Below, piece by piece: positions 35,813-56,324 of a stretch of 56,324 bases of DNA. The position numbers and the translations under genes are program-made. Source of the stretch: a virus (taxonomy: Duplodnaviria > Caudoviricetes); the IMG/VR virus record IMGVR_UViG_3300047369_000502, positions 1 through 56,324 of that record; one strand, written 5' to 3'. The notes beneath the pieces were generated by a model, which saw only the letters and a program-made list of their open reading frames with translations, had not been told where the DNA came from and did not search any database. Every line of letters starts with the position of its first letter. Within the stretch, counting starts at the first letter, position 1.

Positions 35813-38641
35813 ATGGCATTAAGTCCTCAATTACAACAGTTCAAGAGCTCAGGCGTATATCGTCTAGAGTTTGACAAATCACAGACGGTTAATATCCCTG
35901 CTGAAACTATTAGATTGGTTGTTGGTAGATCGAAAAAAGGTCCATACAACATCCCAGTTTACATTGAAAATGTTGAGCAATTTACTCAAATTTTCGGCGG
36001 AATTGACAAGTCATTAGAGAAAAAAGGAATGTACTTCCACAGATCGGCAATTGAAACTCTTTCAAGAGGGCCAATTTTAGCGCTTAATTTAACGATTGCT
36101 GATACTGCAGATAGAGTTGCTTTAGTTTCTCCAGCTACAAACTCTTCTCAAGAAGGTTTAAGCGATATTCCACAAAGCGTACAATACAGTTCAGTATTTG
36201 ACACTGATAAATTCTGGGTTCCTTCAGATTTAAAAGTATTGCAATCTGCAAACAACACTGAATCTTCTTCAAATAACGCAATTTCTTTTGTAAATATCAA
36301 ACAAGACCCGATTACTATTATCGTAAGACAAGCTGCTAACACAGCTGGTTTTGAAATGACAGCAAGAGAATGGTACGGAGAAGCAAACATTCCAGAAGGT
36401 ATCGATCCTTTAGAATACGTATCAGATTACATGGTAGATGTTTTCATCTTCAAAGGTAAATTTGATGCAAGCGAATTAAATAACGATCCAACATATGGTG
36501 GAATGTTTACATCTCAAGGTCTATTAAGATCTGAATTAGCTAAATTTACTAATTTAAGAGAAGTATCATTATTGGCACAATATTCTGGTTCATTAATTCC
36601 TGAATTTATGGATAATGAAGGTCGTCAATTATACATTGAAACTTTAATTAACATAGAAGCAAGAAGAACAGGTTTATTCTGTGCAGTTAACGAAGATGCT
36701 TTATCACAAATTGATTTAGTAGGTAACGGATTTAACATATATCAAGATTATCAACTACTTTCACATAGAGTTAATCAAGCTATATCACCTAACACAGTTG
36801 CTAATTTAAATAAAGTTGTAGAAATTAATGGTTCTTCATTAACTATTAAAGATTACGACGGCACAGGAGTTAGTGCAGATATTTTAGTAGGAAGCTGGTT
36901 TGTTTCAGCAGTAGACGGTGAGTATGTACAAGTTACAGATATCGATTTAGTAGGTTCTGATACAGTTTATACATTATCAGGTGCAGCAGACGTTTCAATT
37001 TACGAAAATTATTCACAAGCAGGACAAGTAGCTGCAGAGTTTGGTGCTAGTGTGCCAGTAACAGTTAACGCAGAAGGTGTTATCATTGTTGATACTGCAA
37101 CTATTACAGCTAACGGCTTATCAGGTAAGTTCTTAAAGAGTACTAACTCAGGAGAATTTGTTGAAGTAGGTATTATTACTGAAAATGTTGATTACAACGG
37201 TACTTTGAAAACTGAAATCAACCCAGTTGGTGCAGTTGGATTCGATGCAACAGAATATACTGGTAACTTATCAACTATTTTACCATTCGTACACGTTGCA
37301 ACTGAAGACTTTGTACAATATGACATTTCAGCAAATGACAGAGCAGTAATGTTCCCAGCAGGTGGCGGTGCATATACACACAACAATACTTCAGCTGGAG
37401 AATTTACTTTCACTGTAGCTACAGCATCAGATGTCTTTGACTGGTCAACCATCAAAGTTGGTATGTATGTAAAAGCAGACGGAGGCAAAGCTGCAAGAAT
37501 TAAAAGAATCAAAAAAGAAACAGTTGGTGATAACACAATTTATAGATTTAGTGTTTCTAGACATATTATTGACAAACCATTATATGCTCTTAAGAGATAT
37601 GAAGAATCTACGTCAACATATACTATGTTCCCATTAGATGGTGCAACTCAATCTGAGAAAACTATCAAAGAATTATTAGATGCAATGATTCCGGGTACAG
37701 GTTTAGCAAATACATTAATTGACAAAGACGCAATTACATTTAGATACATCATTGACACATTCGGTTCATTAGGCCAAGGCGGTACAATCTTAAACAAAGA
37801 GCAATTATCGCAACTTTGTAAAGAAAGACAAAACGCTTCAGCTATCTTAAACGCACCGATGGTTAAAGAATTTAAAGCTGCAACTAATCCTTCATTCTTA
37901 GACTCACAAGGTGTGTTCCAAGCAAGATTAGTTTCAACTGGAGGTAATTTAGACCTTAACCCTGATGCAATCTACACATTACCTTCTATCAATGAAGGCG
38001 CAAACTACGGATTCTACTATGGTCCTGGTCTTAATGTGTTAGAAAATGGTAGAGTTAAAGTAATTCCACCAGCAGCTTACGTATCTAACAATTATATCGA
38101 CAAATATTTAGACGCATTACCATGGTCAATCATCGCAGGCCCAAGAAGAGGTGTTGTAGGTGGTACAGGTGTACAAGGTCTAGAATTTGCATTCGATAAA
38201 TCAGATAGAGATTTCTTAGAGCCATTTGGTTACAACCCAATCGTTTTCGAAAGAGGCGTTGGTTTAACAATCAAAGGTAATAAGACTGCACAGCAAGGAA
38301 TTCAATCAGCATTGTCTTCAGCTCACGTAAGAGAAGCAATGATTTACATTGAAGACGGTTTAGCAGAAATCTTAAAGAACTACTTATTCGAGTTTAACAA
38401 TGCTCAAACGAGATTAGAGATTAAAACTTTAGCAGATTCATTTATGGAATCAGTGAAAAAGGACGGAGGTGTTTACGACTATAGAAACATTATGGACGGT
38501 ACAAACAACACTAACGAGGTAATCGATAATAATATGGGTATTTTAGATACATTTGTTGAGCCAGTTAAAGGTCTTGAAATCTTAGTATCGAGAGTAACAA
38601 TCTTAAATACTGGAGAAATCGCAACTGGAAACTTCGCATAA
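35813..38641 (+). CDS. Contractile tail sheath protein (gp18-like) with large inserted domains
   Basis: SSGVY..EFD.S, GPYN.P, PW...AGPRRG, YNPI, GNKT, YLFEFN. Confidence 0.92.
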   Translation: MALSPQLQQFKSSGVYRLEFDKSQTVNIPAETIRLVVGRSKKGPYNIPVYIENVEQFTQIFGGIDKSLEKKGMYFHRSAIETLSRGPILALNLTIADTADRVALVSPATNSSQEGLSDIPQSVQYSSVFDTDKFWVPSDLKVLQSANNTESSSNNAISFVNIKQDPITIIVRQAANTAGFEMTAREWYGEANIPEGIDPLEYVSDYMVDVFIFKGKFDASELNNDPTYGGMFTSQGLLRSELAKFTNLREVSLLAQYSGSLIPEFMDNEGRQLYIETLINIEARRTGLFCAVNEDALSQIDLVGNGFNIYQDYQLLSHRVNQAISPNTVANLNKVVEINGSSLTIKDYDGTGVSADILVGSWFVSAVDGEYVQVTDIDLVGSDTVYTLSGAADVSIYENYSQAGQVAAEFGASVPVTVNAEGVIIVDTATITANGLSGKFLKSTNSGEFVEVGIITENVDYNGTLKTEINPVGAVGFDATEYTGNLSTILPFVHVATEDFVQYDISANDRAVMFPAGGGAYTHNNTSAGEFTFTVATASDVFDWSTIKVGMYVKADGGKAARIKRIKKETVGDNTIYRFSVSRHIIDKPLYALKRYEESTSTYTMFPLDGATQSEKTIKELLDAMIPGTGLANTLIDKDAITFRYIIDTFGSLGQGGTILNKEQLSQLCKERQNASAILNAPMVKEFKAATNPSFLDSQGVFQARLVSTGGNLDLNPDAIYTLPSINEGANYGFYYGPGLNVLENGRVKVIPPAAYVSNNYIDKYLDALPWSIIAGPRRGVVGGTGVQGLEFAFDKSDRDFLEPFGYNPIVFERGVGLTIKGNKTAQQGIQSALSSAHVREAMIYIEDGLAEILKNYLFEFNNAQTRLEIKTLADSFMESVKKDGGVYDYRNIMDGTNNTNEVIDNNMGILDTFVEPVKGLEILVSRVTILNTGEIATGNFA

Positions 38642-52553: not shown

Positions 52554-52639
52554 GCCCGAGTGGTGGAATTGGTAGACACGAGGGACTTAAAATCCCTTGG
52601 ACAGTAATGTCCGTGACGGTTCGAGCCCGTCCTCGGGTA
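52554..52639 (+). tRNA. tRNA-Leu(TAA) copy 1
   Basis: Cloverleaf with long variable arm; AGGGA-CT-TAA-AA-TCCCT. Confidence 0.95.
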
Positions 52640-52641
52640 CT

Positions 52642-52732
52642 AAAGAGAAGTAGTGAAGCTACAATGATATAGAAAAAGGTAAGGGTTAACCTCTATATCG
52701 TAGTAACCCCGAAAGACCCGAAACTTCTCTTT
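52642..52732 (+). ncRNA. Unassigned structured RNA between tRNAs, possible pseudoknot
   Basis: 10-bp closing stem, 8-bp inner stem, loop GGGTTA complementary to downstream TAACCC. Confidence 0.5.
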
Positions 52733-52737
52733 TTTAT

Positions 52738-52811
52738 GGACCAGTAGCTCAGCTGGATAGAGCATCTGCCTTCTAAGCAGACGGTCACAGGTTCGAATCC
52801 TGTCTGGTTCA
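52738..52811 (+). tRNA. tRNA-Arg(TCT)
   Basis: TCTGC-CT-TCT-AA-GCAGA; canonical D and T arms. Confidence 0.95.
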
Positions 52812-52820
52812 CTAAAACAT

Positions 52821-52936
52821 GGGGAGTTAGTCAAATAGGTACGACGCTCCAGCTATAAGGCCGAAAACATCATACTAGTTACGAGATGCGATTAGGCTTG
52901 TTGGCAGAAGTAGGGGTTCGAATCCCCTACTCCCCC
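52821..52936 (+). ncRNA. tRNA-like RNA with a ~61-nt elongated arm in place of the anticodon arm
   Basis: Acceptor GGGGAGT/ACTCCCC, D arm GTC..GG..GAC, T arm AGGGG-TTCGAAT-CCCCT; no 7-nt anticodon loop. Confidence 0.7.
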
Positions 52937-52939
52937 GCT

Positions 52940-53011
52940 CTTAGATAGGTTTAACAACCGAACAACGAGGCGTCAAATCTCACGCCTACAAGTCGAAAGA
53001 CGGAGTCTAAG
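52940..53011 (+). ncRNA. Unassigned multi-branch structured RNA between tRNA-like genes
   Basis: CTTAGA/TCTAAG closing three hairpins (GGTT/AACC, AGGCGT/ACGCCT, GTC-GAAA-GAC). Confidence 0.45.
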
Positions 53012-53023
53012 TGGAGTAAATAT

Positions 53024-53109
53024 GCCGGAATGGTGGAATTGGTAGACACGAGGGACTTAAAATCCCTTGGACAGTAATGTCCGTGACGGTTCGAGCCCGT
53101 CTTCCGGTA
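53024..53109 (+). tRNA. tRNA-Leu(TAA) copy 2
   Basis: Body identical to copy 1, different acceptor stem. Confidence 0.95.
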
Positions 53110-53167
53110 CAAATCACAACACACATCGAGTCTTGCACCTCTACAAAATTAAAGGTGTTATCAATAT

Positions 53168-53241
53168 GGGAATGTAGCTCAGTTGGTTAGAGCAGGACTC
53201 TTATATAGTCAAGGTCAGGGGTTCAAGTCCCTTCATTCCTA
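53168..53241 (+). tRNA. tRNA-Ile(TAT)
   Basis: GACT-CT-TAT-AT-AGTC anticodon arm; A73. Confidence 0.85.
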
Positions 53242-53259
53242 CCGCGTGTGAGGTGAATA

Positions 53260-53332
53260 GATTTCGTAGCTCAGTTGGTAGAGCATTTGACTTTTAATCA
53301 AAGGGTCGTGGGTTCGAGCCCCACCGGAATCA
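53260..53332 (+). tRNA. tRNA-Lys(TTT)
   Basis: TTTGA-CT-TTT-AA-TCAAA. Confidence 0.95.
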
Positions 53333-53339
53333 CATCGAT

Positions 53340-53414
53340 GGTGACTATAGCTCAGTTGGTTAGAGCGCCTGATTGTGGTTCAGGAGGTCGTCGGTTCGAA
53401 CCCGATTAGTCACC
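53340..53414 (+). tRNA. tRNA-His(GTG)
   Basis: Encoded G-1 and C73; CCTGA-TT-GTG-GT-TCAGG. Confidence 0.95.
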
Positions 53415-53462
53415 CTAACCTACCTTCGACGATATATACAATACCAAAAATAAAACATTAAC

Positions 53463-54185
53463 ATGCAAGGTATTGCTATTATTGGAAACGGAGAAATAGG
53501 TTCTTCTTTAGCTAGAGTTTATCAAGCAAAAGACATAGAACCTATGATTAAAGATTTAGATCTGGACACTGTAAATTCAAAGGTTAAGATTTTAAATATA
53601 TGTTTACCTTATTCGGTAAAATTTGTAGAAATTACAAATGCATATATTGAAGAATATCAACCTGAAATTACAATAATACATTCTACTGTTCCTGTTGGAA
53701 CTACTAAAGAATTAAATGGACCATGTGTTCATTCGCCAGTAAGAGGTGTACACCCAAATCTAAAACAAGGTATAGAAACGTTCTATAAATTTATTGGCTA
53801 TAATAATACTCAAGATTTAGAAGTCGTAAAAGAACATTATAGTCAATTAGATATAAAATGGATTGAGGTAGAAAACTCAGATGCAACGGAGTTAGCTAAA
53901 TTAACAAGTACTACGTATTATGGTTTATGTATTGCATGGCACGGAGAAATGAAGAAAATGTGTGATAAACACAATATTGATTTTGACGTGATTAATAAAT
54001 GGACAGAAACTTACAATTCAGGATATATTGAATTAGATATGCCAGGAGTTGTAAGACCGAATTTATATCCACCTTCAAATGGTATCGGTGGACATTGTGT
54101 AATTCAAAACACAGAGTTATTATTAACTCAATTTGAAAGTATGGCGCTCGATCTTATAGTACAATATAAGAAGGGTAACAAATAG
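53463..54185 (+). CDS. UDP-glucose/GDP-mannose dehydrogenase family protein (lacks the C-terminal UDP-binding domain)
   Basis: IIGNGEIG, ICLP, HSTVPVGTT, HSP.RG, ELAKL, GIGGHC; late motif at 53431. Confidence 0.8.
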   Translation: MQGIAIIGNGEIGSSLARVYQAKDIEPMIKDLDLDTVNSKVKILNICLPYSVKFVEITNAYIEEYQPEITIIHSTVPVGTTKELNGPCVHSPVRGVHPNLKQGIETFYKFIGYNNTQDLEVVKEHYSQLDIKWIEVENSDATELAKLTSTTYYGLCIAWHGEMKKMCDKHNIDFDVINKWTETYNSGYIELDMPGVVRPNLYPPSNGIGGHCVIQNTELLLTQFESMALDLIVQYKKGNK

Positions 54186-54258
54186 GTCTGGTAGTTCAGT
54201 TGGTTAGAATACATGCCTGTCACGCATGGGGTCGCGGGTTCGAGTCCCGTCCAGACCG
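54185..54258 (+). tRNA. tRNA-Asp(GTC)
   Basis: CATGC-CT-GTC-AC-GCATG; first G is shared with the upstream TAG stop. Confidence 0.95.
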
Positions 54259-54322
54259 CAAAATTGTACTTTGAAACAATTTTATCAAGACATATATAAA
54301 AATTGGCTGCCAGTCAAGTATT

Positions 54323-54394
54323 GGCCCCTTCGTCTATCGGTTAGGACGCCAGGTTTTCATCCTGGAAAGAGGAGTTCGATTCTCCTAGGGGCTA
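54323..54394 (+). tRNA. tRNA-Glu(TTC)
   Basis: CCAGG-TT-TTC-AT-CCTGG; middle promoter at 54273-99. Confidence 0.95.
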
Positions 54395-54403
54395 CAATTT
54401 AAT

Positions 54404-54476
54404 TGGGCTGTGGTGTAACTGGCAACACGTCTGGTTTTGGTCCAGAAGAGTCGGGGTTCGATCCCCTGCGGCCCAA
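54404..54476 (+). tRNA. tRNA-Gln(TTG)
   Basis: T1-A72; TCTGG-TT-TTG-GT-CCAGA. Confidence 0.93.
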
Positions 54477-54702
54477 CAATTTAAGAATTAACATATTGAC
54501 AATAATATGTTAATTTTTTTGATAAAATGTGAAACCTTTTTATTATATTGGGTATAATAGTCCAATTAACAAAGAATGAACAAAAATTCATTGAACACAT
54601 TAACAAAATCTGCAAAATACTTAAACGCAGTAAGCTTTATCAAGAATCCTAGAGTTGTTTTTACAGCCGGATAGAGTTTTATATTAACCAAATTAATTTA
54701 TT

Positions 54703-55394: not shown

Positions 55395-55631
55395 GTGAAG
55401 CTAACTGATAGAGATATCGATAGAATTATCGAGATGGCGTGGGAAGACAGAACCCCATTTGAGGCCATAGAATTTCAGTTTGGTTTAAAAGAAAATGACG
55501 TAAGAAAATTAATGAGGTCAGAGATGAAAGAGTCCTCATTTAAGATGTGGAGAGAACGAGTTAAAGGTAGAAAAACTAAACACGGGAAAACAAATCCCGC
55601 TAATAGATTTAAATCAAAAAACCAAAAATAG
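55395..55631 (+). CDS. TIGR03643/DUF2805 family protein
   Basis: IDRIIEMAWEDRTPFEAI..QFGL.E..V..LMR......SFK.WR.RV. Confidence 0.85.
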   Translation: MKLTDRDIDRIIEMAWEDRTPFEAIEFQFGLKENDVRKLMRSEMKESSFKMWRERVKGRKTKHGKTNPANRFKSKNQK

Positions 55632-55643
55632 ACACCGTGCCAC

Positions 55644-55973
55644 ATGAAAAAGCACTTATTATTGATTACTATTATGTTAACAACATCCATGTCTGGACAA
55701 AATTTTATTTTACAAGAAAAAGATAAACAGGCACATTTTGCAGCAGGTATTGCAGTAGGAGCCTTAGGTTATCATTGGTCATATAAAAGGCATGGTAATA
55801 AAACAAGAGCACAAATAACAGCCGTGGCTGCTTCAATTTCCGCTGGTATATTAAAAGAACTATATGATAATAGAACTGGAGGAACAGTAGAAGGTAGAGA
55901 TGTTCTAGCTACTTCGATGGGCGGTGCCGTATTTACAGTTACCATACCATTATTTCAAAAGAAAAAGAAATGA
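55644..55973 (+). CDS. YfiM/DUF2279-like membrane protein
   Basis: Signal peptide, DKQAHFAAG, GILKELYD, D..AT..G. Confidence 0.7.
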   Translation: MKKHLLLITIMLTTSMSGQNFILQEKDKQAHFAAGIAVGALGYHWSYKRHGNKTRAQITAVAASISAGILKELYDNRTGGTVEGRDVLATSMGGAVFTVTIPLFQKKKK

Positions 55974-56324
55974 AAATAGGAATTACATGTTCTTCATTTG
56001 ACTTATTACATGCAGGTCATATTAAGATGTTAGAAGAGGCAAAACAACATTGCGACTTTTTAATTTGTGCGTTGCAAACTGACCCGACTATTGATCGACC
56101 AGAAAAGAATCAACCCATTCAATCTATTATTGAAAGATGGGTGCAATTAGATGCTTGTAAACATGTCGATCAGATCGTACCATATGCCACAGAAAAAGAT
56201 TTAGAAGATATTTTTATGTCATTTAAACTAGATTGTAGAATCATTGGAGATGAATATGAGACTAAGCATTTTACAGCAAAAGACATCTGTCTAAAAAGAG
56301 AAATAGAGATAATATATAATAGTC
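55970..56324 (+). CDS. Glycerol-3-phosphate cytidylyltransferase-like protein (TagD family), partial
   Basis: MKIGITCSSFDLLHAGHIKMLEEAK...LQTDPTIDRPEKN.P.QS..ER; runs off the window end. Confidence 0.85.
   Translation, partial: MKIGITCSSFDLLHAGHIKMLEEAKQHCDFLICALQTDPTIDRPEKNQPIQSIIERWVQLDACKHVDQIVPYATEKDLEDIFMSFKLDCRIIGDEYETKHFTAKDICLKREIEIIYNS

What the first reader, a model, noticed from the sequence alone, without database searches (positions are those of the whole stretch)
52821..52936. tRNA-shaped RNA whose anticodon arm is replaced by a ~61-nt extended stem-loop
Seen: a perfect 7-bp acceptor stem, T8-A9, a D arm with GG, a 4-nt variable loop and a canonical T arm. Positions 52847-52907 form a long interrupted helix (CT.CCAGC/GTTGG.AG; AAG.CC/GGCTT; CATC/GATG) instead of a 17-nt anticodon arm. 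It has a D stem and no G3-U70 pair or tag ORF, so it is not tmRNA; the insert is too short for a self-splicing intron; and the topology is not the YrlA permutation. Inference: RNase P/Z/CCA processing would give a stable tRNA mimic carrying a cargo arm, perhaps a decoy for anticodon nucleases or tRNA-sensing defences, a ribosome/synthetase inhibitor, or a protein-spliced intron. With the two neighbouring structured RNAs this may be an undescribed phage RNA module.
Basis: partly seen in the sequence, partly recalled or inferred. Interest (0 to 1): 0.8.

Follow-up and report, generated by a model that had tools for sequence, protein, structure and literature searches.

The report
Phage tRNA-like RNA with fused domain
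This is a real, conserved tRNA-shaped RNA that cannot decode; it is the front half of a roughly 200-base phage RNA whose conserved back half also occurs alone in some tiny bacteria, and its long arm carries a self-pairing loop that probably joins copies together.

Summary
Window 52821-52936 has a 7-bp acceptor stem, D arm and T arm; Rfam's tRNA model scores it 42.5 bits (cut-off 29) with 57 extra bases where the anticodon arm belongs, and default ARAGORN does not call it.

It is not a lone oddity. The element is directly fused to an ~80-nt four-way-junction RNA (52937-53016) that is more conserved than the tRNA-like part and matches no Rfam 15 family. An exact pattern from this 3' domain found 110 stretches in viral contigs, 47 in genomes and at least 120 in metagenomes. 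In phages it mostly follows a tRNA-like domain with an enlarged arm. In Patescibacteria it appears to stand alone.

Covariation supports the acceptor, D, T and arm helices and two of the four helices of the 3' domain. No consistent anticodon exists. The arm's apical loops carry 6-nt palindromes that change between relatives but stay palindromic, the signature used to argue for intermolecular kissing loops in OLE and GOLLD.

Best reading: a non-decoding tRNA-shaped scaffold, probably self-pairing, that carries a conserved effector domain of unknown function. Processing and oligomerisation are inferred, not shown.

The parts
52821..52827 (+). acceptor stem, 5' strand (GGGGAGT)
   Evidence: Pairs 7 of 7 with 52929-52935. 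Acceptor pairs covary in relatives.
52830..52845 (+). D arm (3-bp stem plus an A.C mismatch; loop with G18 G19)
   Evidence: Rfam tRNA alignment. U11-A24 changes to C-G in 6 of 13 relatives.
52847..52907 (+). 61-nt interrupted arm in place of the anticodon arm (outer, middle and apical helices)
   Evidence: Minimum-energy folds. 93.8% of cells paired in the 8 closest relatives against 17-45% when slid; 2 pairs with compensatory changes.
52874..52879 (+). self-complementary hexamer ACTAGT in the 13-nt apical loop (proposed kissing-loop site)
   Evidence: Self-complementary in 13 of 13 aligned relatives as ACUAGU, GCUAGC or GAUAUC. 46 of 89 predicted hairpin loops of family arms hold a 6-nt palindrome, against 9.1 +/- 2.7 in shuffled loops.
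52912..52928 (+). T arm (AGGGG / TTCGAAT / CCCCT)
   Evidence: Rfam alignment. 3 of 5 T-stem pairs covary in A3 and 4 of 5 in A4.
52929..52936 (+). acceptor 3' strand plus discriminator C; no CCA is encoded
52937..53016 (+). conserved 3' domain, a four-way junction. One unpaired G, then P1 (52938-52945 with 53006-53010 and 53014-53016, with a GUG bulge), P2 (52948-52951 / 52956-52959), P3 (52969-52973 / 52982-52986), and P4 (52992-52994 / 52999-53001, GAAA loop). The junction strands UAG, GAACAACGA, UACAA and GGAG are invariant or nearly so.
   Evidence: The minimum-energy fold gives exactly this junction. Covariance model R1 scores 73.3 bits, E=1e-21, at 52935-53016. In 71 sequences, each of the 5 modelled P1 pairs has changes on both sides in 26-34 sequences, and 2 of 3 P2 pairs in 21-26. 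No Rfam family matches this stretch at E<=10 except a chance-level FsrA hit (11.8 bits against a cut-off of 80).
53017..53021 (+). short conserved tail (TAAAT region) before the next tRNA-Leu
   Evidence: Conserved up to GGAGTAA in close relatives. The end of the RNA is not known.

Best explanation
Window 52821-53016 encodes one composite, non-coding and non-decoding RNA of about 200 nt. It belongs to a widespread family that matches no Rfam 15 family.

The 5' half keeps a tRNA's acceptor stem, D arm and T arm, and so probably its L-shaped elbow. The anticodon arm is replaced by a long helix or, in other subgroups, a Y-shaped arm.

Inferred steps:
1. The tRNA shape lets host RNase P cut a precise 5' end within the phage tRNA operon, and gives a rigid scaffold.
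2. The arm's apical loop exposes a self-complementary hexamer (ACUAGU here) that pairs with the same loop of a second copy, forming a kissing dimer. Relatives with two different palindromic loops could form rings or chains.
3. The 3' four-way junction begins one base after the discriminator. It is the conserved effector part, and probably stays attached rather than being trimmed for CCA addition. Its activity (ligand or protein binding, or catalysis) is unknown.

Shown: the fold, its conservation, the fusion of the two parts, the lack of an anticodon, and the palindrome-to-palindrome changes. Inferred: processing, dimerisation and the division of labour.

Rough odds: non-decoding composite family, 0.9; kissing-loop self-association, 0.55; the two halves stay joined in the mature RNA, 0.5.
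For: Family and fusion:
- blastn and nhmmer with the element plus its downstream flank found relatives in which the downstream ~80 nt is better conserved than the tRNA-like part.
- An exact 34-mer from the 3' domain found 22 viral stretches, 17 of them distinct. All 17 have GGTTCRANTCC-type T arms just upstream.
- Of 223 distinct sequences with at least 120 nt upstream, ARAGORN with introns allowed delimits a long tRNA-like domain directly upstream in 105. Rfam's tRNA model hits such domains with 57-76-nt insertions.

Structure:
- 3' domain: covariation in P1 and P2 in 71 sequences.
- A 15-sequence subgroup: 98.1% of cells paired against 38-48% when slid, and 24 of 36 pairs with compensatory changes, covering the acceptor, D, arm base, two arm hairpins and T stem.
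- The window's own subgroup.

Non-decoding:
- ARAGORN's intron solutions for this one sequence differ with the intron length allowed: Val-tac with 0-120 nt, Leu-aag with 0-160 nt.
- They scatter over many amino acids and 'Stop' across relatives.

Kissing loops:
- The hexamer is self-complementary in 13 of 13 sequences (A-U to G-C in 5, C-G to A-U in 1) and in 15 of 15 (double changes to UCUAGA and ACAUGU).
- 55 of 57 distinct arms hold a 6-nt palindrome; 200 shuffles gave a mean of 40 and a maximum of 49.
- 46 of 89 predicted hairpin loops hold one, against 9.1 +/- 2.7 in shuffled loops (maximum 19 in 1000).
- The same argument was used for OLE and GOLLD (preprint 10.1101/2024.12.08.627333, passages read).

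One unit:
- A single unpaired G separates the discriminator from P1.
- There is one copy per record in 5 of 5 large viral records.
- Contigs from 4 metatranscriptome runs of 4 studies bridge the junction. This is weak evidence: contigs only, and DNA can be present in RNA libraries.
Against: - Nothing shows the mature ends, so cleavage at the junction by RNase Z or by the RNA itself is not excluded.
- The 3' domain appears to work without any tRNA-like part in Patescibacteria, so the two halves may be separable.
- Two viral sequences (L204, L244) have a normal-length tRNA-like part in front of the domain.
- Arm stability is unimpressive: the mean z of 57 arms is -0.99, and 13 of 57 are above 0.
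- Nearest-neighbour energies of the hexamer duplexes are modest: ACUAGU -4.8, UAAUUA -0.4 kcal/mol, against -10.9 for GCGCGC.
- Palindrome counts are inflated by shared ancestry. Over whole arms the excess is only 108 against 68.5 +/- 7.8.
- Palindromes could in principle be DNA-level sites.
- The invariance of the 13 + 9 nt core across the large set is forced by the search pattern.
- Only 5 of 53 loci of sigma-factor relatives hold the domain within the DNA fetched, so it is an accessory cassette.
- ARAGORN delimits the tRNA-like part in fewer than half of the family sequences (105 of 223), and some of the remainder truly lack it.
Confidence: 0.55

Rival explanations
1. Processing handle. The tRNA-like part is only a cleavage signal. 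RNase P cuts at its 5' end and RNase Z (or RNase E) cuts after the discriminator. This releases the 3' four-way junction as the functional small RNA, and the tRNA-like piece is a by-product or a separate stable RNA. Known parallels, from my own recall: herpesvirus MHV68 tRNA-miRNA units, MALAT1/mascRNA, and the 3'ETS-leuZ sRNA of E. coli.
For: In Patescibacteria the 3' domain appears as a stand-alone gene, with promoter-like TTGACA/TATAAT boxes upstream and a hairpin plus U-run downstream (read by eye from the sequences printed). It is more conserved than the tRNA-like part. No CCA is encoded, as for the neighbouring tRNAs, so 3' endonucleolytic processing must exist in the host.
Against: This does not explain why the arm is enlarged, structured and carries conserved-yet-covarying palindromic loops; an ordinary tRNA would serve as a handle. 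P1 starts one base after the discriminator, a crowded substrate for RNase Z. Contigs from RNA libraries bridge the junction (weak).
Confidence: 0.25
2. Self-cleaving ribozyme. The 3' domain would be a new ribozyme class that cuts at or near its own 5' boundary and so trims the trailer of the upstream tRNA-like RNA, as the HDV-like theta ribozymes do behind phage tRNAs.
For: About 23 junction nucleotides are invariant or nearly so around four variable helices, a pattern typical of catalytic or ligand-binding cores. The position directly behind a tRNA-shaped RNA parallels theta ribozymes (PMC10879173; search listing and start of abstract seen). The distribution across phages and a few bacteria is sporadic.
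Against: The fold is a nested four-way junction, not the HDV double pseudoknot. No Rfam ribozyme family matches at E<=10. The stand-alone copies in Patescibacteria have no obvious substrate upstream. Contigs from four RNA libraries cross the presumed site (weak).
Confidence: 0.1
3. Decoy or sponge. The tRNA-shaped part would soak up a host tRNA-directed defence or processing factor, such as a nuclease, nucleotidyltransferase or toxin that reads the acceptor/T-arm elbow.
For: The elbow-forming nucleotides are kept: U8, G18 G19 and the TTCRANY T loop in the 13 and 15 aligned relatives (alignments). In one subgroup a PolyA_pol/CCA-adding-family gene (PF01743, E=5.4e-18) follows the RNA by 68 nt (L154, L149). 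It lies about 1 kb away in L153 and 2.2 kb away in the window's closest relative. 8 of 9 loci checked from subgroups outside tRNA arrays have no ordinary tRNA gene.
Against: No anticodon loop is mimicked, so anticodon nucleases are unlikely targets. In 3 of the 4 large records that have PF01743, the gene lies 19-63 kb from the RNA. Other subgroups have unrelated neighbours: SNase, DNA ligase, gp32. Jumbo phages with tRNA sets often carry such enzymes anyway (my recall), and no control for this was run.
Confidence: 0.1
4. A decoding tRNA whose anticodon loop carries an intron that is spliced out.
For: The Rfam tRNA model places the extra bases inside the anticodon arm. ARAGORN with introns allowed returns a 'tRNA'.
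Against: The ARAGORN solutions are contrived: a poor anticodon stem and a 22-nt unpaired variable loop. They change with the settings and give no consistent anticodon across relatives. At 44-110 nt the insert is far below group I or II sizes. I saw no bulge-helix-bulge by eye. The insert is itself under structural selection. A conserved domain blocks the 3' end.
Confidence: 0.03
5. A decaying tRNA pseudogene with a chance insertion, the palindromes being DNA-level features.
For: Only 5 of 53 relatives' loci carry the 3' domain. Arm folding energies are modest.
Against: More than 200 distinct family members with compensatory changes in every helix. The element is nearly identical between contigs whose flanks differ. 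The palindrome changes identity while staying palindromic.
Confidence: 0.02

Closest known systems
Phage T4 stable RNAs species 1 and 2 (rnaC, rnaD)
   Same: They are non-decoding stable RNAs of 139 and 119 nt, encoded in the phage tRNA cluster directly after tRNA-Arg (annotation). rnaC has a GGTTCGAATCC T arm and paired ends with long internal arms. Their function is still unknown (my recall).
   Different: I saw no sequence likeness. Model R1 finds nothing in the T4 region. T4 rnaC has no canonical D arm in its fold and no four-way-junction 3' domain. No formal alignment of the tRNA-like parts was run.
ROOL, GOLLD, OLE and manA RNAs (self-assembling bacterial and phage RNAs)
   Same: ROOL and GOLLD are phage-encoded, often lie beside tRNA islands and have unknown function. 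Their homo-oligomers are held by kissing loops, and symmetric loops switch between palindromes (passages of 10.1101/2024.12.08.627333). RNAs under 200 nt, such as manA from cyanophages, also form cages through kissing loops and GNRA contacts (passages of 10.64898/2026.07.01.735769).
   Different: No Rfam hit to any of them in the window. This RNA is much smaller than ROOL or GOLLD, contains a tRNA-shaped domain, and its assembly is only predicted.
Theta (HDV-like) ribozymes behind phage tRNAs
   Same: A small conserved RNA placed directly 3' of a tRNA-type gene in uncultivated phages (PMC10879173; listing and start of abstract).
   Different: Theta ribozymes have the HDV double-pseudoknot fold and follow real, often suppressor, tRNAs. 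Here the fold is a nested four-way junction, the upstream partner is not a decoding tRNA, and cleavage is untested.
tmRNA tRNA-like domain
   Same: An acceptor stem plus T arm, with a long interrupted helix where the anticodon arm would be. The 5' stretch GG-UACGACG resembles tmRNA's GGNUUCGACG (my recall; there is a weak Rfam tmRNA_permuted alignment of 15.7 bits against a cut-off of 47).
   Different: G3-C70 rather than G3.U70, a true D stem, no tag reading frame or pseudoknots, no encoded CCA, and no ARAGORN tmRNA call.
Bacterial Y RNA-like YrlA
   Same: A non-coding RNA with a tRNA-mimicking module, also found in phages (PMC4201824; listing and start of abstract only).
   Different: YrlA is permuted: its ends lie in the Ro-binding stem. 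Rfam YrlA scores 14.7 bits against a cut-off of 69, and at other coordinates. I did not search for a Ro/Rsr gene.

Membership tests
tRNA (Rfam RF00005; decoding tRNA) | Score at or above the family's gathering cut-off | tested here: met
   42.5 bits against 29 at 52821-52936. The score comes from the acceptor, D and T parts only.
tRNA (Rfam RF00005; decoding tRNA) | 7-bp acceptor stem, D arm with G18 G19, 5-bp T stem with a TPsiC-type loop | tested here: met
   Read; alignment; covariation.
tRNA (Rfam RF00005; decoding tRNA) | 5-bp anticodon stem with a 7-nt loop, U33 and a conserved anticodon | tested here: not met
   57 inserted bases replace 13 model positions. Default ARAGORN makes no call. 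The intron-mode 'anticodons' are inconsistent.
tRNA (Rfam RF00005; decoding tRNA) | Free 3' end carrying CCA; aminoacylation | not testable with these tools
   No CCA is encoded and a structured domain starts one base after the discriminator. Only contigs of older runs were available, not raw reads.
Intron-containing tRNA (group I or bulge-helix-bulge type) | A group I core of 200 nt or more, or a bulge-helix-bulge at the exon-intron borders; the same anticodon after removal in relatives | tested here: not met
   The insert is 44-110 nt. No Rfam intron family hit. The ARAGORN splice solutions differ between settings and relatives. I looked for a bulge-helix-bulge by eye only.
tmRNA | G3.U70, tag reading frame, pseudoknots, ARAGORN or Rfam tmRNA call | tested here: not met
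   G3-C70. No tmRNA in ARAGORN. Rfam tmRNA_permuted scores 15.7 bits against 47.
YrlA (Y RNA-like) | Rfam RF02553 score; ends in a Ro-binding stem | tested here: not met
   14.7 bits against 69, at 52759-52853. The ends here lie in the acceptor stem.
HDV-like / theta ribozyme | Nested double-pseudoknot fold with P1 starting at the cleavage site; self-cleavage | tested here: not met
   The fold is a simple four-way junction. No HDV-family Rfam hit at E<=10. Cleavage itself cannot be tested here.
ROOL / GOLLD / manA | Match to the Rfam models | tested here: not met
   No such hit in the window at gathering score or in the region at E<=10.
Symmetric kissing-loop RNAs (a mechanism, not a family) | A loop hexamer that stays self-complementary through double substitutions | tested here: met
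   13 of 13 and 15 of 15 aligned sequences. 46 of 89 loops against 9.1 expected. Physical dimerisation was not tested.

The most novel reading that the evidence does not exclude
The family would be a new class of self-assembling phage RNA. A tRNA-shaped module would use palindromic kissing loops to build dimers, or, where two different palindromes are present, closed rings or cages. These would display a conserved four-way-junction core that is itself a new ribozyme or ligand- or protein-binding RNA class shared between aquatic phages and Patescibacteria, possibly acting on tRNA 3' ends or on CCA-adding enzymes.
Probability: 0.3. Interest if true: 0.9.

Novelty: new variant of a known kind. 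Interest (0 to 1): 0.78.

Why it matters
Phage tRNA clusters have held unexplained tRNA-like stable RNAs since the T4 species 1 and 2 RNAs were described. ROOL and GOLLD showed only recently that phage RNAs near tRNA islands can be large self-assembling machines.

This finding adds a compact (~200 nt), abundant and well-delimited family that links three things:
- a tRNA shape;
- loops with the sequence signature of homotypic kissing;
- a very conserved four-way junction that also occurs as an apparently free-standing small-RNA gene in Patescibacteria.

The RNA is small enough for direct in-vitro tests of cleavage, dimerisation and cryo-EM, and for binding assays with RNase P, RNase Z and CCA-adding enzymes. 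It could therefore make the function of tRNA-associated phage RNAs experimentally approachable.

It is also an annotation trap. Rfam-based pipelines will call it a tRNA, and ARAGORN with introns allowed gives it arbitrary anticodons, including 'Stop' and 'SeC'. Those calls could be misread as suppressor tRNAs.

Tried and rejected
- Intron reading. ARAGORN with introns gave Val(tac) with a 27-nt intron and a 22-nt unpaired variable loop, and Leu(aag) under another length limit. Rejected as arbitrary.
- tmRNA and YrlA. Weak Rfam alignments far below the cut-offs. Rejected.
- Known ribozymes and riboswitches for the 3' domain. Nothing at E<=10 in the window region, in 9 small relatives' loci, or at gathering score in 10 genome loci.
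- Pseudoknot between the P3 loop and the 3' tail. GGG/CCC looked promising by eye in Patescibacteria, but a permutation test over 76 loop/tail pairs was not significant: mean longest run 3.09 against 2.95, with 33 of 500 permutations as high.
- Coding reading of the 3' domain. Rejected by eye, because indels in P2 and P4 shift the frame.
- Housekeeping RNA of Patescibacteria. Only 3 of 151 sampled genomes matched, counting the starting genome, with strict filters and only 30 candidates scored per genome.
- Conserved neighbour genes. None in Patescibacteria or across phage subgroups. PolyA_pol adjacency holds in one subgroup only.
- GenBank phages. blastn found no match to the composite of another subgroup or to the window's 3' domain. 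The first blastn found only ordinary tRNA pieces.
- Relatives at the same place. After Leu-Arg they carry another tRNA, a small ORF or an endonuclease-like ORF, not a normal version of this gene.
- T4 rnaC and rnaD. No R1 hit and no obvious likeness.
- Literature. Six searches found no description. No listed paper holds the 12- or 13-mer of the core. The IMG/VR catalogue of 10,006 candidate RNAs (PMC10690425; passages read) may contain it in supplementary tables that I could not open.
- RNA libraries. All runs were contigs, with no raw reads, so ends, strand and level are unknown. Stretches without cover mean nothing.
Full report
**What is at the coordinates**

The window is a 56,324-base fragment of an uncultivated virus (CheckV completeness about 20%). 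It encodes a T4-type large terminase, a tail sheath, a prohead protease, a sigma factor and a GMP-reductase-family protein, so it is a large myovirus. Public runs that hold the stretch are labelled seawater, marine or freshwater metagenomes.

A tRNA array on the + strand runs from 52554 to 54477. Eight bases after tRNA-Arg(tct) lies the element, 52821-52936. Read, it has:
- a perfect 7-bp acceptor stem;
- U8 and A9;
- a 3-bp D stem with G18 G19;
- a 4-nt variable loop;
- a canonical T arm;
- discriminator C, with no encoded CCA.

Rfam's tRNA model scores it 42.5 bits (cut-off 29), with 57 bases inserted in place of 13 anticodon-arm positions. Default ARAGORN ignores it. The 116 nt fold into the cloverleaf with a long arm (z = -2.47).

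**It is the front half of a larger unit**

A relative on a 212-kb contig (L001) carries the same element with two changes. The ~80 nt after it are identical, although the spacer before tRNA-Arg is unrelated. blastn and nhmmer against loci fetched through the neighbouring sigma factor found five more relatives, in which this downstream stretch is better conserved than the tRNA-like part.

The downstream stretch folds on its own into a four-way junction:
- P1, which starts one base after the discriminator;
- three hairpins, P2 to P4;
- the junction strands UAG, GAACAACGA, UACAA and GGAG.

An exact 34-mer from it found 22 viral stretches.

In 71 aligned 3' domains, each of the five modelled P1 pairs shows changes on both sides in 26-34 sequences, and two of three P2 pairs in 21-26. 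P3 is invariant, partly because the search pattern forces it. P4 varies in length and sequence but always pairs, as read by eye.

A covariance model, R1, scores the window copy at 73.3 bits (E = 1e-21; 52935-53016). It finds one copy per record in 5 of 5 large viral records and 5 of 5 genomes.

No Rfam 15 family matches the domain. No paper in the searchable library contains its 12- or 13-mer core.

**The tRNA-like half across the family**

Of 223 distinct family sequences with enough upstream DNA, ARAGORN with introns allowed delimits a long tRNA-like domain ending just before the 3' domain in 105. Rfam's tRNA model hits several of these with 57-76-nt insertions.

Acceptor sequences differ freely between subgroups but stay paired. 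Some subgroups have one A.A mismatch.

In a 15-sequence subgroup the whole cloverleaf is supported by 24 of 36 pairs with compensatory changes. 98.1% of cells are paired, against 38-48% when partners are slid. In that subgroup the anticodon arm is replaced by a basal stem carrying two hairpins.

In the window's own subgroup the D, T and acceptor stems covary.

The 'anticodons' ARAGORN proposes are inconsistent. For this one sequence it gives Val(tac) or Leu(aag), depending on the intron limit. Across relatives the calls range over many amino acids, 'Stop', 'SeC' and 'Pyl'. There is no conserved 7-nt loop with U33, so this is not a decoding tRNA, with or without an intron.

**Palindromic loops**

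The apical loop of the window's arm contains ACUAGU (52874-52879). In the 13 aligned members of its subgroup, the same columns read ACUAGU (8), GCUAGC (4) or GAUAUC (1). The hexamer is always self-complementary, through paired substitutions at mirror positions.

In the other aligned subgroup the first hairpin loop reads ACUAGU (13), UCUAGA (1) or ACAUGU (1). The second loop reads UGAUCA in 13 of 15.

Family-wide counts:
- 55 of 57 distinct arms hold at least one 6-nt palindrome; dinucleotide shuffles gave a mean of 40 and a maximum of 49.
- 46 of 89 predicted hairpin loops of six or more bases hold one, against 9.1 +/- 2.7 for shuffled loops and a maximum of 19 in 1000.

Adjacent bases in a loop cannot pair with each other within one molecule. 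Kretsch and colleagues argued that a palindrome which changes yet stays a palindrome therefore points to pairing between two copies. They used that logic for OLE and GOLLD (passages read). Small phage RNAs such as manA have since been reported to assemble through kissing loops (passages read).

Caveats:
- The sequences are related, so the counts are not independent.
- The whole-arm excess is modest: 108 against 68.5 +/- 7.8.
- Arm folding energies are weak: mean z = -0.99.
- Hexamer duplex energies are small: -4.8 kcal/mol for ACUAGU.

**Distribution and context**

The family is absent from GenBank phages at blastn sensitivity. It is present in only 5 of 53 loci of sigma-factor relatives. In the others, Leu-Arg is followed by another tRNA or a small ORF. 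It is thus an accessory cassette.

In several phage subgroups it is not in a tRNA array at all: 8 of 9 such loci have no ordinary tRNA gene.

In one subgroup a 241-aa PolyA_pol/CCA-adding-family gene follows it by 68 nt (L154, L149). The gene lies about 1 kb away in L153 and 2.2 kb away in L001's contig. In three other large records the gene is 19-63 kb away, one large record has none, and other subgroups have unrelated neighbours. I treat this as a hint only.

Thirty of the 47 genome hits are in assemblies whose titles name Patescibacteria lineages. There the 3' domain has no tRNA-like partner. It is flanked by promoter-like boxes and a hairpin with a U run (read by eye) and has no conserved neighbour gene. 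Only 3 of 151 sampled genomes of that phylum match R1, so it is not a housekeeping RNA there. Two of the genome hits are chance matches inside coding sequence (L262, L292).

**Expression**

Six metatranscriptome runs hold part of the stretch. In the four I laid, from four studies, contigs of 92-94%-identical relatives span the junction between the two halves: 52744-53060, 52830-53052 (in two runs) and 52775-53019. These are assembled contigs, and DNA can be present in such libraries. This shows presence only, not a transcript, its ends or its strand.

**Interpretation**

The simplest account of all the features is a single composite RNA:
- a tRNA-shaped scaffold with the elbow nucleotides kept, probably matured at its 5' end by RNase P;
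- an arm built to self-associate;
- a conserved 3' core that carries the still unknown activity.

The main rival is that the tRNA-like part is a processing handle from which the 3' RNA is released. That fits the stand-alone Patescibacteria form, but does not explain the elaborate arm. A self-cleaving 3' domain, a decoy role and an intron reading are less likely, for the reasons given under the rival explanations.

None of the processing or assembly steps is shown. The tests are listed under the next steps.

**Comparison and verdict**

The closest known things are:
- the T4 species 1 and 2 RNAs (same genomic habit, no detectable homology);
- the self-assembling ROOL, GOLLD and manA RNAs (same loop signature and tRNA neighbourhood, no homology);
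- theta ribozymes (same position behind a tRNA-type gene, different fold).

The element fails the defining tests for a decoding tRNA, tmRNA, YrlA and the HDV-like ribozymes.

I rate it a new variant of a known kind, namely phage tRNA-associated structured RNA. Its 3' domain belongs to no described family. Interest is 0.78.

Noticed in passing
window 52641-52737: The 97-nt spacer between tRNA-Leu and tRNA-Arg folds into a long hairpin closed by AAAGAGAAGU/ACUUCUCUUU and followed by a U run (-23 kcal/mol, z = -3.2, 1 of 200 shuffles). It looks like an intrinsic terminator or a structured spacer. It is not conserved: L001 has an unrelated spacer, and L107 and L104 have 10-12 nt.
   Followed up: partly
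window 52554-52640 and 53024-53110: Two copies of tRNA-Leu(taa) flank the Arg + odd-RNA cassette. They differ by compensatory changes in the acceptor stem (GCCCGAG/CUCGGGU against GCCGGAA/UUCCGGU). L001's single copy matches the second form and has a compensatory change in the variable arm.
   Followed up: no
window 53463-54185: A 240-aa ORF sits inside the tRNA array. It has only a weak match to the central domain of UDP-glucose/GDP-mannose dehydrogenases (PF00984, E=4.8e-7; PHROG 9148). It is not related to the PolyA_pol protein that follows the RNA in L154.
   Followed up: partly
L154 7617-8342; L149 401-1126 (-); L095 9326-9961: Short (212-241 aa) PolyA_pol/CCA-adding-family proteins (PF01743) are encoded next to or near the composite RNA in some phages.
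   Followed up: partly
L204 / L244 (viral contigs); L275 (Patescibacteria MAG): The 3' domain is preceded by normal-length but odd tRNAs. L204 and L244 have an anticodon loop UGAAAAU without U33 (ARAGORN: Phe-aaa). In L275, an 8-nt anticodon loop that ARAGORN reads as a 4-base anticodon 'atca' lies 43 nt upstream.
   Followed up: no
L086 / L087 10065-10140; L094 9801-9875: ARAGORN reports tRNAs of undetermined type in relatives' arrays, with a 4-base (gcaa) or 2-base (tt) anticodon.
   Followed up: no
L085 7072-7396; L093 7094-7267: Small ORFs sit inside relatives' tRNA arrays at the place where the window has the odd RNA. By eye, one is cysteine- and histidine-rich and looks like endonuclease VII, and one looks like a lipoprotein signal peptide followed by a Thr/Ser-rich tail. 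Pfam was not run on either.
   Followed up: no
window 55970-56323 and 55395-55631: A cytidylyltransferase-like ORF (PF01467, E=8.4e-14) is cut by the window's end, and a DUF2805 ORF (E=4e-34) lies just upstream of it. Both are downstream of the tRNA array.
   Followed up: no
L184, L214, L255, L186 (3' domain P3 loop and 3' tail): In some members the P3 loop (UCAGUACA) and the tail after P1 (GGUACA) share GUAC, itself a palindrome. L191 has GAAC in the loop and GUUC in the tail. The family-wide test for loop-tail pairing was not significant.
   Followed up: partly
window 37155-37227: A weak second match to model R1 (14.2 bits, E=0.063) lies inside the tail-sheath gene. It is most likely chance.
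   Followed up: no
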